A stretch of DNA of 64,000 nt from Escherichia coli (lineage in GTDB: Bacteria > Pseudomonadota > Gammaproteobacteria > Enterobacterales > Enterobacteriaceae): the NCBI RefSeq assembly GCF_003334815.1, contig NZ_QOWO01000003.1; one strand, written 5' to 3'. The notes under the pieces were generated by a model. The model worked only from the letters and a program-made list of their open reading frames with translations. It searched no databases and was not told where the DNA came from. Positions within the stretch are counted from its first letter, which is position 1. Each line of letters starts with the position of its first letter. The translations under genes and the position numbers were made by a program. Positions 32,480 to 54,462 of the stretch are shown here, one piece after another.

Positions 32480-32944
32480 ATGGAAAAGAAATTACCCCGC
32501 ATTAAAGCGCTGCTAACCCCCGGCGAAGTGGCGAAACGCAGCGGTGTGGCGGTATCGGCGCTGCATTTCTATGAAAGTAAAGGGTTGATTACCAGTATCC
32601 GTAACAGCGGCAATCAGCGGCGATATAAACGTGATGTGTTGCGATATGTTGCAATTATCAAAATTGCTCAGCGTATTGGCATTCCGCTGGCGACCATTGG
32701 TGAAGCGTTTGGCGTGTTGCCCGAAGGGCATACGTTAAGTGCGAAAGAGTGGAAACAGCTTTCGTCCCAATGGCGAGAAGAGTTGGATCGGCGCATTCAT
32801 ACCTTAGTGGCGCTGCGTGACGAACTGGACGGATGTATTGGTTGTGGCTGCCTTTCGCGCAGTGATTGCCCGTTGCGTAACCCGGGCGACCGCTTAGGAG
32901 AAGAAGGTACCGGCGCACGCTTGCTGGAAGATGAACAAAACTAA
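32480..32944 (+). CDS. soxR: Redox-sensing MerR-family regulator SoxR (154 aa)
   Basis: [70 protein letters not shown]...; C-terminal [2Fe-2S] motif [12 protein letters not shown]. Confidence 0.97.
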
Positions 32945-33080
32945 AGCGCCACAAGGGCGCTTTAGTTTGTTTTCCGGTCTTTGTCTTTCTCTCTATCCCG
33001 CTGGTACACAGGAGGGTTTCCCCCGACGTCAACACACCTCATTCGAGCACGTGGTGGAGGTTCCGGTTGGTGTTGATGCT
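32938..33080 (-). ncRNA. ryjA: Possible small RNA RyjA (recalled from literature as lying between soxR and yjcD; boundaries approximate)
   Basis: Not verifiable from sequence alone: the 545-bp soxR-ghxP gap is far larger than a simple promoter needs and the soxR terminator hairpin is also a good terminator on the minus strand. Strand and ends are from memory. Confidence 0.25.
32942..32975. terminator. Bidirectional hairpin terminator at the soxR 3' end
   Basis: taaagcgccacaagggcgcttta flanked by tttgtttt on the plus strand and ttttgtt on the minus strand. Confidence 0.55.
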
Positions 33081-52117: not shown

Positions 52118-54265
52118 TTACGCCAGTGCCGCTTCGCGCAGGCGAGTTTTCAACTTGTTGTACTCGTCAATCACGTACTGCTCGGCGGCGCGCTGATCGG
52201 CGATCGGCTCGACGCGAACGGCGCAGTATTTGTACTCCGGCGTTTTCGTAATCGGGCTTAAGTTTTCAGTAACCAGCTCGTTACAGGCACCAATCCACCA
52301 CTGGTAGGTCATGTAAATCGCCCCTTTGTTCGGACGATCGCTGACCTGCGCACGGGTGATAATTTTGCCTTTACGCGAGTGCACCCAAACCAATGCCTCA
52401 TCTTCAATACCCAGACGTTTGGCGTCTTCGGTATTGATTTGTGCGTAGCCAGGTTCATCAGCCAGCGCCGCCAGTGCCGCACAGTTACCGGTCATCGAAC
52501 GGCAAGAGTAGTGACCAACTTCACGCACCGTTGACAGTACCATCGGGTACTCGTCGGTGAGTTTGTCGATTGGCGCTACCCAGTCGCAGGTGAAGAACTG
52601 CGCCAGACCGTTCGGGGTATCAAACTTCTCTTTAAACAGATAAGAAGTCCCCTGATCGGCATCTGAAGTATCGCGGCAAGGCCACTGAATGAAGCCCAGT
52701 TCGCCCATTTTCTCGTAAGTCGCACCGTAGAAATCCGGGCACAGATGACGCAACTCATCCCAGATCTCCTGGGTGTTGTTGTAGTGCATCGGATAACCCA
52801 TACGGGTGGCGATTTCACTGATGATTTGCCAGTCCGTTTTCAGATCCCATTTCGGTTCAACCGCCTTGAAGAAACGCTGGAAGCCACGGTCAGCCGCAGT
52901 AAACACGCCTTCATGCTCGCCCCACGACGTTGACGGTAAAATAACATCCGCCGCCGACGCGGTTTTGGTCATAAAGATGTCCTGAACGATAACCAGTTCC
53001 AGATCTTCAAAGGCTTTACGTACTGCCGACAGCTCCGCGTCAGTTTGTAGCGGATCTTCGCCCATAATGTACGCGGCACGCACTTCGCCATGCGCTGCGC
53101 GGTGCGGCAGCTCGCTGATGCGATAGCCGGTATGCGCTGGCAGGCTTTCCACGCCCCAGGCTTTGGCGAATTTCTCGCGGTTAGCCGGATCTTTCACGTA
53201 CTGGTATCCCGGATACGTATCCGGCAGCGCGCCCATATCGCAGGCACCCTGAACGTTGTTCTGACCACGAACCGGGTTAACACCCGCATGCGGCTTACCG
53301 AGGTTACCGGTCAGCATCGCGAGGCTGGTCAGAGAACGCACGGTTTCCACGCCCTGGTAGAACTGGGTTACACCCATGCCCCACAGGATGGCGGCGCTTT
53401 TCGCCTGGGCATACATCCGTGCCGCCTGACGAATCTCACTGGCGCTGACGCCGGTGATATCTTCAACCGACTCCGGCGTGTAGCCTTCAACGATTTTACG
53501 ATACTCTTCAAAGCCTTCTGTACGTGAAGCGACGAACGCTTTGTCGTACAGATTTTCTTCAATAATGACATGGCCCATCGCATTCAACAGCGCGATGTTC
53601 GAGCCGTTTTTCAGTGCAATGTGCATGTCAGCAATGCGCGCGGTTTCAATTTTGCGCGGATCGCAGACGATAATTTTCGCCCCGTTACGTTTAGCGTTAA
53701 TTACGTGATTCGCCACGATTGGGTGGGAATCCGCCGGGTTGTACCCGAAAACGAACACTAAATCGGTATTATCAATTTCGTTAATAGCATTGCTCATTGC
53801 GCCATTACCGACCGATTGGTGCAGACCTGCAACCGATGGGCCGTGTCAGACACGAGCGCAGCAGTCAACGTTATTGGTACCAATAACGGCGCGCGCAAAT
53901 TTTTGCATTACATAGTTGGTTTCGTTACCCGTACCACGCGAGGAGCCGGTCGTCTGGATGGCATCCGGACCGTACTTCTCTTTGATGGCGCTCAGGCGCT
54001 CGGCAACGTAATTCAGTGCCTCATCCCAGGAAACAGGTTCGAGTTTGCCGCCACGCTGGCGACGGATCATGGGGGTTTTCAGGCGCGGGGTCAGGATCTG
54101 GGTATCGTTAATGAAGTCCCAGCCATAATAACCCTTCAGACACAGGGTACCCTGGTTGGTTTTCCCCTGCGCTGCCTCCGCCCGGACGATTTTGCCGTTA
54201 TCGACGACCAGGTTGATTTTGCAACCTGATGCGCAATAGGGGCAAACCGTGACGACTTTTTTCAT
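52118..54265 (-). CDS. fdhF: Formate dehydrogenase H selenoprotein FdhF (715 aa with in-frame TGA = selenocysteine at codon 140)
   Basis: Track ORFs 53846..54265 (MKKVVTVCPYCASGCKINLVVDNGK...NVDCCARV) and 52118..53797 (MSNAINEIDNTDLVFVFGYNP...) are in the same frame, separated only by TGA (complement 53846..53848). Read-through gives ...CARV-U-HGPSVAGLHQSVGNGAMSNAINE... Confidence 0.95.
53798..53845 (-). other. Bacterial SECIS stem-loop immediately 3' of the fdhF UGA codon
   Basis: Minus-strand sequence after TGA: cacggcccatcggttgcaggtctgcaccaatcggtcggtaatggc, with stem ggttgcagg / cctgcacc-like pairing around a small apical loop. Confidence 0.8.
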
Positions 54266-54314
54266 CGGTCTCGCTCCAGTTAATCAAATCACGCATACGC
54301 GCTCTCGACTACAG

Positions 54315-54332
54315 TATGCATCTTTTATGCCA
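54315..54332 (-). promoter_or_regulatory. Sigma-54 (-24/-12) promoter of fdhF
   Basis: Minus strand TGGCATAAAAGATGCATA: GG and GC spaced 10 bp apart as in the TGGCAC-N5-TTGCA consensus, about 50 nt upstream of fdhF ATG. Confidence 0.7.
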
Positions 54333-54462
54333 CATTTTATGTGGGGTCATTCCCTGATATTACGGGCACTATTTATTCAAAACTCTGACGAAAAACAGGC
54401 TGTCGTCAGTTTTGACGTGACGAAACGAAATACCGCGTGACAGCCATCACGCGGCAGACATT

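What the first reader, a model, noticed from the sequence alone, without database searches (positions are those of the whole stretch)
53798..53848. In-frame TGA in fdhF is a selenocysteine codon with a SECIS hairpin directly downstream
The ORF track splits fdhF into 139-codon and 559-codon pieces at a TGA (complement 53846..53848), yet both pieces share one frame and the 16 codons between them are sense codons. The 45 nt after the TGA form the stem-loop expected of a bacterial SECIS. Automated ORF calling would mis-annotate this as two genes or a pseudogene; the correct product is one 715-aa selenoprotein.
Basis: partly seen in the sequence, partly recalled or inferred. Interest (0 to 1): 0.5.

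Follow-up and report, generated by a model that had tools for sequence, protein, structure and literature searches.

The report
E. coli fdhF selenocysteine codon and SECIS

Summary
Observation and interpretation are both correct, and both are long known. The window is E. coli chromosome (malK to alsC).

- **Gene structure.** On the minus strand, a 139-codon ORF and a 559-codon ORF share one frame. They are separated by TGA (53846..53848) and 16 sense codons, giving 715 codons.
- **Protein.** It is 100% identical over residues 1-715 to solved FDH-H structures (1AA6, 1FDO, 2IV2, 7Z0T), which carry selenocysteine at residue 140.
- **SECIS.** The RNA at 53799..53853 (-) matches Rfam SECIS_2 end to end (87.1 bits; gathering score 70). 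It has every published fdhF SECIS feature: a 17-nt apical stem-loop starting 11 nt after UGA, bulged U17, and a GGUC loop with G23/U24.
- **Folding energy does not separate it from shuffled sequence** (z +0.1 to -1.4).
- **Comparative data do.** All 55 TGA-type homologues from other species keep GCAGGUCUGC in register and have frozen synonymous sites (0.37 vs 1.44 bits, p=1.8e-5). None of the 62 Cys-type homologues shows either.
- **Machinery.** selA, selB and selD are annotated in a 99.97%-identical genome. tRNA-Sec is in 5425 of 5426 E. coli genomes.
- **Annotation.** RefSeq calls one CDS, but the two exact fragments also sit in public protein collections.

Novelty: already known. Interest: low.

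The parts
52118..54265 (-). fdhF coding sequence for formate dehydrogenase H: 715 codons plus the TAA stop, read through the internal UGA.
   Evidence: Single-frame translation. 100% DNA identity to annotated fdhF. 100% protein identity over 1-715 to PDB 1AA6/1FDO/1FDI/2IV2/7Z0T. TIGR01591 scores 1089 bits against a cutoff of 666.
53846..53848 (-). UGA codon 140, decoded as selenocysteine (the Mo ligand of FDH-H).
   Evidence: Position read. It aligns to X140 of 1AA6. Homologues carry TGA, TGC or TGT at this codon.
53799..53853 (-). SECIS element as delimited by the Rfam SECIS_2 model. It includes a 5-bp outer helix that closes around the UGA.
   Evidence: cmscan 87.1 bits, gathering score 70, model positions 1-55 of 55. 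The MFE of the 55-mer reproduces the model structure. Pair counts on 31 distinct homologous 55-mers show 92-93% of cells paired, against 22-51% for slid registers.
53809..53848 (-). The 40 nt from the U of UGA, the span I take for the '40-nucleotide' fdhF SECIS hairpin of the literature (nt 1-40).
   Evidence: Sequence and fold. Described as a 40-nt hairpin, with lower-stem positions 4-14 and 32-41, in PMC8659212.
53818..53834 (-). Minimal SECIS: the 17-nt apical stem-loop GGUUGCAGGUCUGCACC (nt 15-31). It starts 11 nt after the UGA. U17 (53832) is bulged, the loop is GGUC (53824..53827), and G23 is at 53826 and U24 at 53825.
   Evidence: Direct reading, matching the description in PMC8659212. 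GCAGGTCTGC is invariant in 55 of 55 TGA-type homologues and in 0 of 62 Cys-type ones. The U18-A29 pair is kept through a two-sided change (UA 26, AU 5, none unpaired) only if U17 is the bulge.
54317..54332 (-). Sigma-54-type -24/-12 promoter motif TGGCATAAAAGATGCA, upstream of fdhF.
   Evidence: It is the only match to TGGCAYN5WTGCW in the window, but 0.48 matches are expected by chance, so the pattern alone is weak. That fdhF is transcribed from a sigma-54 promoter activated by FhlA and formate rests on my own knowledge of the literature and was not tested here.
54274..54277 (-). GGAG Shine-Dalgarno sequence, 8 nt before the ATG at 54263..54265.
   Evidence: Direct reading.
52073..52104 (-). 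Intrinsic-terminator-like hairpin ACAGCCTCC-TTTC-GGAGGCTGT followed by TTTTTTT, 14 nt after the fdhF stop codon.
   Evidence: Consensus scan: 9 pairs, 6 of them G-C, then a T-run. This is a consensus match only.

Best explanation
This is the fdhF gene of Escherichia coli, which encodes the 715-residue selenoprotein formate dehydrogenase H.

**Mechanism.** As the ribosome approaches codon 140 (UGA), the mRNA just downstream folds into the SECIS hairpin. Its apical 17-nt stem-loop has a bulged U17 and a GGUC loop with G23 and U24. It starts 11 nt after the UGA and is bound by the C-terminal domain of the specialised elongation factor SelB. SelB carries GTP and Sec-tRNA(Sec). That tRNA is the selC product; it is charged with serine and converted by SelA, using selenophosphate made by SelD. 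Tethering on the SECIS delivers Sec-tRNA(Sec) to the A-site UGA in competition with release factor 2, so selenocysteine is inserted and translation continues. Sec140 then serves as a ligand of the molybdenum in the bis-MGD cofactor at the active site.

**Shown here:**
- the UGA, the frame and the single continuous protein
- identity to the solved selenoprotein
- the SECIS sequence and structure features
- RNA-level constraint specific to TGA-type homologues
- presence of selA, selB and selD in a near-identical genome, and of tRNA-Sec across E. coli genomes

**Taken from the literature:** SelB binding, Sec insertion, competition with RF2 and the catalytic role of Sec140.
For: **Gene and protein**
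- Sequence and frame.
- 100% identity to annotated fdhF. 5420 of 5426 complete E. coli genomes hold the gene, and it is annotated as a single CDS.
- 100% identity over 1-715 to PDB 1AA6/1FDI/1FDO/2IV2/7Z0T 'formate dehydrogenase H', with X at residue 140.
- TIGR01591 equivalog: 1089 bits against a cutoff of 666, in one stretch over residues 6-685.
- Solved homologues are single chains across the junction. They carry Sec (9t1s_L) or Cys (7qv7_S, 7bkb_D, 9wxb_B) at the aligned position.

**SECIS**
- Rfam SECIS_2: 87.1 bits, full length, E 1.8e-17.
- The 55-nt element is 100% identical in 5412 of 5421 E. coli records.
- A variant strain differs only by a U-G to C-G change in the outer helix and by one unpaired base.

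**Cross-species comparison**
- The scan left wobble positions free.
- 55 of 55 TGA-type genes keep GCAGGTCTGC in register; 0 of 62 Cys-type genes do.
- Synonymous entropy of codons that are at least four-fold degenerate is 0.37 bits inside SECIS codons +1..+13 and 1.44 bits outside in TGA-type genes (Mann-Whitney p=1.8e-5). In Cys-type genes it is 1.86 against 1.75 (p=0.93).
- There are compensatory changes at two pairs (G-C to U-A, U-A to A-U), and the bulged-U17 register leaves no unpaired cell at pair 18-29.
- SECIS_2 hits 6 of 10 TGA loci and 0 of 10 Cys loci from other species.

**Machinery**
- tRNA-Sec is in 5425 of 5426 genomes.
- selB and selA and selD are annotated in strain 300709, which is 99.97% or more identical to the window.

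**Literature**
- UGA140 plus SECIS (codons 141-153) of fdhF directs SelB-dependent Sec insertion in vivo and in vitro (PMC4513850).
- SECIS anatomy is described in PMC8659212.
Against: Nothing contradicts this reading. The weak points are about how much each test can show.

- Folding energy does not distinguish the hairpin from shuffled sequence (z +0.10 to -1.38).
- Most stem pairs are invariant across the homologues sampled, so true covariation is thin: 2 pairs have two-sided changes, a count reached by 162 of 500 shuffles.
- TGA-type homologues came only from Enterobacterales and Pasteurellaceae. Part of their low synonymous diversity therefore reflects relatedness, although the flanking codons in the same genes vary freely.
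- 4 of 10 TGA loci tested (Haemophilus, Bisgaard taxon 45, Budvicia and L119, which shares the Pasteurellaceae-type SECIS) fall below the tight Rfam gathering score.
- None of the sel genes lies in the window itself, and the window holds no tRNA.
Confidence: 0.99

Rival explanations
1. The TGA is a genuine stop. fdhF here is either a pseudogene or two independent genes of 139 aa and 559 aa.
For: A mechanical ORF list shows two ORFs. Both exact fragments circulate as separate proteins in public collections.
Against: - The TGA and its surroundings are 100% conserved in 5412 of 5421 E. coli records.
- The TGA is kept in 55 genes of other species.
- Solved structures show one 715-residue chain.
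- All homologues span the junction in one chain, with Cys or Sec at this position.
- A single family model covers residues 6-685.
Confidence: 0.003
2. The hairpin is only a by-product of conserved amino acids (HGPSVAGL). It is not a selected RNA element, and read-through occurs without it.
For: The peptide motif is conserved in all homologues. The hairpin's energy is no better than that of shuffles.
Against: - Cys-type homologues encode the same HGPSVAGL peptide but use all synonymous codons, and none has the GCAGGUCUGC stem-loop.
- In TGA-type genes the synonymous sites of these codons are frozen while flanking codons vary.
- The paper's 'UGA-SECIS' construct, which lacks the SECIS, is described as 'impaired in SelB binding' and serves as the control for Sec-independent misreading of UGA (PMC4513850).
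- U17 or G23 mutations are reported to abolish UGA reading (PMC8659212).
Confidence: 0.005
3. The UGA is decoded by something other than the Sec system, for example near-cognate tRNA-Trp or a suppressor.
For: Low-level SECIS-independent misreading of UGA exists in E. coli. This is my own knowledge, and it is used as a control in PMC4513850.
Against: - The solved structures of the identical protein list a non-standard residue at 140.
- RefSeq product names for this gene include 'selenocysteine-containing'.
- The full sel machinery is present in the species.
Confidence: 0.002

Closest known systems
E. coli K-12 fdhF (FDH-H, Sec140) and its SECIS; Rfam RF01988 SECIS_2; PDB 1AA6/1FDO/2IV2/7Z0T
   Same: Everything tested matches. 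DNA identity to RefSeq E. coli fdhF is 100% and protein identity to the PDB chains is 100%. The SECIS_2 match is full length. The gene neighbourhood is gltP-yjcO-fdhF-mdtPON.
   Different: Nothing. This is the reference example itself.
fdnG and fdoG, the other two E. coli selenoprotein genes (formate dehydrogenases N and O; PDB 1KQF)
   Same: They belong to the same Mo-bisPGD formate dehydrogenase superfamily. A Sec-His dipeptide sits at the active site, and UGA is followed by a SECIS read by the same SelB.
   Different: They are distant paralogues of about 1015 aa with a Tat signal. The alignment to 1kqf_A covers only residues 2-248 (E 5e-45). The TIGR01553 model scores 248 bits against a cutoff of 814. 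Neither gene lies in this window, where Rfam finds only one SECIS.
Cys-type FdhF homologues: T. kivui HDCR FdhF (7QV7), and the Cys paralogues found in Citrobacter, Enterobacter, Klebsiella, Serratia and others
   Same: They share the fold and the active-site motif CARV-[C/U]-HGPSVAGL.
   Different: They carry TGC or TGT in place of TGA. They have no SECIS stem-loop and show free synonymous variation, and they give no SECIS_2 hit.

Membership tests
Bacterial SECIS, fdhF type (Rfam RF01988 SECIS_2) | Score at or above the curated gathering threshold, over the full model. | tested here: met
   87.1 bits against 70, model positions 1-55 of 55, E 1.8e-17.
Bacterial SECIS, fdhF type (Rfam RF01988 SECIS_2) | An in-frame UGA immediately 5' of the hairpin, inside the coding sequence. 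| tested here: met
   UGA at 53846..53848 (-). The frame is continuous on both sides.
Bacterial SECIS, fdhF type (Rfam RF01988 SECIS_2) | A 17-nt apical stem-loop (nt 15-31) that begins 11 nt after the UGA. | tested here: met
   GGUUGCAGGUCUGCACC at 53818..53834 (-), with nt 4-14 between it and the UGA. Criterion taken from PMC8659212.
Bacterial SECIS, fdhF type (Rfam RF01988 SECIS_2) | A bulged U17, and G23/U24 in the apical loop. | tested here: met
   U at 53832; loop GGUC with G at 53826 and U at 53825. Comparative pair counts favour the U17-bulge register: pair 18-29 is paired in 31 of 31 sequences, 5 of them by a two-sided change.
Bacterial SECIS, fdhF type (Rfam RF01988 SECIS_2) | RNA-level selection that is tied to the presence of the UGA. 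| tested here: met
   55 of 55 TGA-type genes keep the stem-loop, against 0 of 62 Cys-type genes. Synonymous entropy is 0.37 against 1.44 bits (p=1.8e-5) in TGA-type genes only.
Bacterial SECIS, fdhF type (Rfam RF01988 SECIS_2) | Thermodynamic stability beyond what the base composition gives. | tested here: not met
z-scores are +0.10, -0.91, -1.23 and -1.38. This is not a defining feature in the literature.
Bacterial SECIS, fdhF type (Rfam RF01988 SECIS_2) | Binding by SelB and SelB-dependent Sec insertion at the UGA. | not testable with these tools
   Shown experimentally for this same fdhF segment (codons 130-179 and 130-156) in PMC4513850.
Bacterial SECIS, fdhF type (Rfam RF01988 SECIS_2) | The host genome encodes selA, selB, selC and selD. 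| tested here: met
   None is in the window, which holds no tRNA. tRNA-Sec is in 5425 of 5426 E. coli genomes. selB and selA and selD are annotated in strain 300709, which is 99.97% or more identical to the window.
Formate dehydrogenase H / Fdh-alpha (NCBIfam TIGR01591; Mo-bisPGD oxidoreductases) | Whole-protein score above the curated equivalog cutoff. | tested here: met
   1089 bits against 666.25, residues 6-685 on profile positions 1-672 of 672.
Formate dehydrogenase H / Fdh-alpha (NCBIfam TIGR01591; Mo-bisPGD oxidoreductases) | An N-terminal four-cysteine [4Fe-4S] motif, and the Sec/Cys-His active-site dipeptide. | tested here: met
   C8-x2-C11-x3-C15 ... C42 and U140-H141 are read in the translation. 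The sequence is identical to the solved FDH-H structure. Assigning these residues as ligands rests on my own knowledge of the published structure.

The most novel reading that the evidence does not exclude
The only mildly non-textbook reading left open concerns the 5-bp outer helix of the Rfam model. It pairs nt -5..-1 with nt +46..+50 and so encloses the UGA itself. Across 31 distinct homologous sequences it stays 99% paired, with only wobble-compatible changes (C-G to U-G, G-C to G-U). It could have a role of its own, for example slowing the ribosome or shielding the UGA from RF2, beyond the 17-nt minimal SECIS. The data here cannot separate such a role from codon and amino-acid constraint.
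Probability: 0.1. Interest if true: 0.15.

Novelty: already known. Interest (0 to 1): 0.05.

Why it matters
There is no new biology. This is the gene in which bacterial selenocysteine recoding and the SECIS were originally worked out.

The practical value is for annotation. ORF callers that ignore recoding split fdhF, and both exact fragments are widespread in public protein collections.

There is also a point for scan design. Hairpin stability is not a usable criterion for a bacterial SECIS. A covariance model, or frozen synonymous sites tied to the TGA, does discriminate.

Tried and rejected
- **Folding energy as a significance test.** The expected hairpin is the MFE structure, but its z-scores against shuffles are +0.10 to -1.38. 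I rejected it as a discriminator.
- **Covariation counts on the Rfam structure.** Only 1-2 pairs have two-sided changes, and the pair-count measures do not exceed shuffles (287 of 500 and 162 of 500). This supports the register but is not strong proof by itself. The Rfam register, with U18 as the bulge, leaves 5 sequences unpaired at that position, so I preferred the literature register with U17 as the bulge.
- **sel genes in the window.** None is there, and there are no tRNAs. I had to go to a near-identical RefSeq genome (one search was a navigation miss).
- **tRNA-Sec query.** It was validated only by hitting features annotated tRNA-Sec at 100% identity.
- **Minimal-SECIS paper (PMC147357).** The library does not hold it, so I used the secondary description in PMC8659212.
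- **Two off-target hits of the genome scan.** L047 (TGA) and L114 (Cys) lack the CARV context and any flanking similarity, so I dropped them as chance matches.
- **Pseudogene or two-gene reading.** Rejected on the evidence.

Full report
**1. What is in the sequence**

Read on the minus strand, the region around the finding is ...GTT GAC TGC TGC GCT CGT GTC TGA CAC GGC CCA TCG GTT GCA GGT CTG CAC CAA TCG GTC GGT AAT GGC GCA ATG AGC....

- The mechanical ORF list gives a 139-aa ORF (53846..54265, -) and a 559-aa ORF (52118..53797, -).
- Translating 52118..54265 (-) in one frame gives 139 codons, the stop, 16 sense codons (HGPSVAGLHQSVGNGA), then M157 and the rest. The total is 715 codons.

All the coordinates and counts in the finding are correct.

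**2. Is it more than chance?**

- A run of 16 stop-free codons after a stop is not unusual. By my own arithmetic, about 46% of random stretches would show it.
- The hairpin is real: the minimum-free-energy fold is the expected interrupted stem with a GGUC loop. But it is not more stable than dinucleotide-preserving shuffles. The z-score is +0.10 for the 51 nt of the finding, -0.91 for 42 nt, -1.23 for 55 nt and -1.38 for 91 nt.

So 'a stable hairpin downstream' would not have been a discriminating test. Three other lines of evidence are decisive.

(a) Covariance model.
- Rfam finds one SECIS in the whole 64-kb window, SECIS_2 (RF01988), at 53799..53853 (-).
- It scores 87.1 bits against a gathering score of 70, with E 1.8e-17, and matches model positions 1-55 of 55.

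(b) Homology across the junction.
- The conceptual 715-aa protein is 100% identical over 1-715 to the PDB chains of E. coli formate dehydrogenase H (1AA6, 1FDI, 1FDO, 2IV2, 7Z0T), which carry a non-standard residue at 140.
- The NCBIfam equivalog TIGR01591 (formate dehydrogenase subunit alpha) scores 1089 bits against a cutoff of 666. Its one stretch covers residues 6-685 and so spans both ORF pieces.
- More distant solved homologues are single chains across this point. They carry Sec (9t1s_L) or Cys (7qv7_S, 7bkb_D, 9wxb_B) at the aligned position.

(c) Comparison with other species.
- I scanned one genome per species for the peptide context V-[U/C]-H-G-P-S-V-A-G, leaving every wobble position free. 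The scan stopped at its 120-locus limit.
- After dropping two chance hits, 55 loci carry TGA (Enterobacterales and Pasteurellaceae) and 62 carry TGC or TGT.
- All 55 TGA genes have GCAGGTCTGC at +18..+27 from the T of TGA. None of the 62 Cys genes does, although they encode the same A-G-L residues there.
- In TGA genes, the synonymous-codon entropy of codons that are at least four-fold degenerate is 0.37 bits inside SECIS codons +1..+13 and 1.44 bits in the flanks (Mann-Whitney p=1.8e-5).
- In Cys genes the values are 1.86 and 1.75 bits (p=0.93).
- This pattern fits an RNA element overlaid on coding sequence and tied to the UGA.
- SECIS_2 hits 6 of 10 TGA loci and 0 of 10 Cys loci from other species. 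The four misses are Haemophilus, Bisgaard taxon 45, Budvicia and L119. All keep the apical stem-loop but fall below the tight threshold.

**3. Anatomy of the element**

Numbering starts from the U of UGA as 1 (window coordinate = 53849 minus n).

- The apical 17-nt stem-loop GGUUGCAGGUCUGCACC is nt 15-31 (53834..53818). It begins 11 nt after the UGA.
- The loop is G22 G23 U24 C25 (53827..53824), and U17 is at 53832.
- This matches the published description of the fdhF SECIS: a 40-nt hairpin, a mini-SECIS at nt 15-31 placed 11 nt from the UGA, a bulged U17, and G23/U24 in the loop, with U17 and G23 as SelB contacts (PMC8659212).

Pair counts on 31 distinct homologous 55-mers show the following.
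- 92-93% of cells are paired, against 22-51% for slid registers.
- True covariation is thin because most pairs never vary.
- The data do distinguish two registers for the bulge. With U17 bulged, pair U18-A29 is U-A in 26 sequences and A-U in 5, with none unpaired. With the Rfam register (U18 bulged), 5 sequences are unpaired.
- A second two-sided change (G-C to U-A) occurs at G15-C31 in the Pasteurellaceae.

**4. Whose gene this is, and its context**

- The 2148-nt gene is 100% identical to fdhF in many E. coli chromosomes. It is present in 5420 of 5426 complete genomes, and RefSeq annotates it as one CDS.
- The 55-nt element is 100% identical in 5412 of 5421 records.
- The one variant I inspected differs within the 55-nt element by a synonymous U-G to C-G change in the outer helix and by one unpaired base. 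Its UGA and apical stem-loop are intact.
- The window as a whole is 99.97% or more identical to strain 300709, and it runs from malK to alsC.
- fdhF sits between yjcO and mdtP. Around it are a GGAG ribosome-binding site, a sigma-54-type TGGCAT-N5-ATGCA motif at 54317..54332 (-), and a terminator-like hairpin at 52083..52104 (-).
- The sigma-54 motif is the only match in the window, but 0.48 matches are expected by chance. Its function is known from the literature, by my own recollection.

**5. Machinery**

- The window holds no tRNA and no sel gene.
- The species has them all. A tRNA-Sec query hits features annotated tRNA-Sec in 5425 of 5426 genomes.
- selB and selA and selD are annotated in the near-identical strain.

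**6. Mechanism**

SelB-GTP-Sec-tRNA(Sec) binds the apical SECIS stem-loop and delivers Sec to the A-site UGA in competition with RF2. This step is not testable with these tools. It has been shown for this same segment (fdhF codons 130-179 in vivo, 130-156 in vitro), where recoding efficiency is 30-40% in vivo and about 40% in vitro (PMC4513850).

**7. The annotation claim**

- RefSeq handles the gene correctly.
- However, the exact 139-aa and 559-aa fragments are each recorded as separate proteins on at least 1000 contigs. Their source names include 'Formate dehydrogenase H [Escherichia coli]'.

**8. Verdict**

The feature is already known: it is the founding example of bacterial selenocysteine recoding. 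Interest is low.

The only residual open point is whether the conserved 5-bp outer helix that encloses the UGA has any role beyond the minimal SECIS. The present data cannot separate that from coding constraint.

Noticed in passing
window 32937..33077 (-): Full-length match to the Hfq-binding sRNA SraL/RyjA (Rfam RF01408, 153 bits), downstream of soxR.
   Followed up: no
window 50921..51330 (+); also 106..176, 4335..4405, 40315..40385: Seven naRNA4 (REP/BIME-type) hits. Four are head-to-tail copies with a 113-bp period in the gltP-yjcO spacer just beside fdhF. Around 4366..4426 the window differs in length from strain 300709, next to one of these hits (4335..4405).
   Followed up: partly
window ~24519..24524 and 46498..48180 (+): The closest RefSeq strain (300709) has an IS150 interrupting aphA and a frameshifted nrfE. 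The window lacks the IS, and it has an uninterrupted nrfE-sized ORF of 560 codons counted from the first possible start.
   Followed up: partly
loci L003/L004, L006/L007, L009/L010, L021/L022, L033/L034 and others: Many Enterobacterales genomes carry both a Sec-type fdhF (TGA plus SECIS) and a Cys-type paralogue (TGC or TGT, motif ...GLQETLGNG). I saw no Cys-type copy in this window, and an fdhF DNA query finds a median of one place per E. coli genome. This may be a selenium-independent back-up.
   Followed up: no
hits H18 and H25: RefSeq product names for the same fdhF gene are inconsistent. Some records call it 'formate dehydrogenase N subunit alpha, selenocysteine-containing', others 'H subunit alpha' or plain 'subunit alpha'.
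   Followed up: no
E. coli genome collection: Four fdhF copies lie on records typed as plasmids. Six complete genomes have no fdhF match, and one has no tRNA-Sec match.
   Followed up: no
L047 10499..10524 (+): An alphaproteobacterial MAG has V-TGA-HGPSVAG with no flanking similarity to FdhF (...CARWLGHLIV*HGPSVAGRLLRYSRV) and no SECIS-like stem-loop. I treated it as a chance or degenerate match.
   Followed up: no
window 54431..54456 (-): A terminator-like hairpin with 11 pairs lies right after the mdtP stop codon, upstream of the fdhF promoter region.
   Followed up: no
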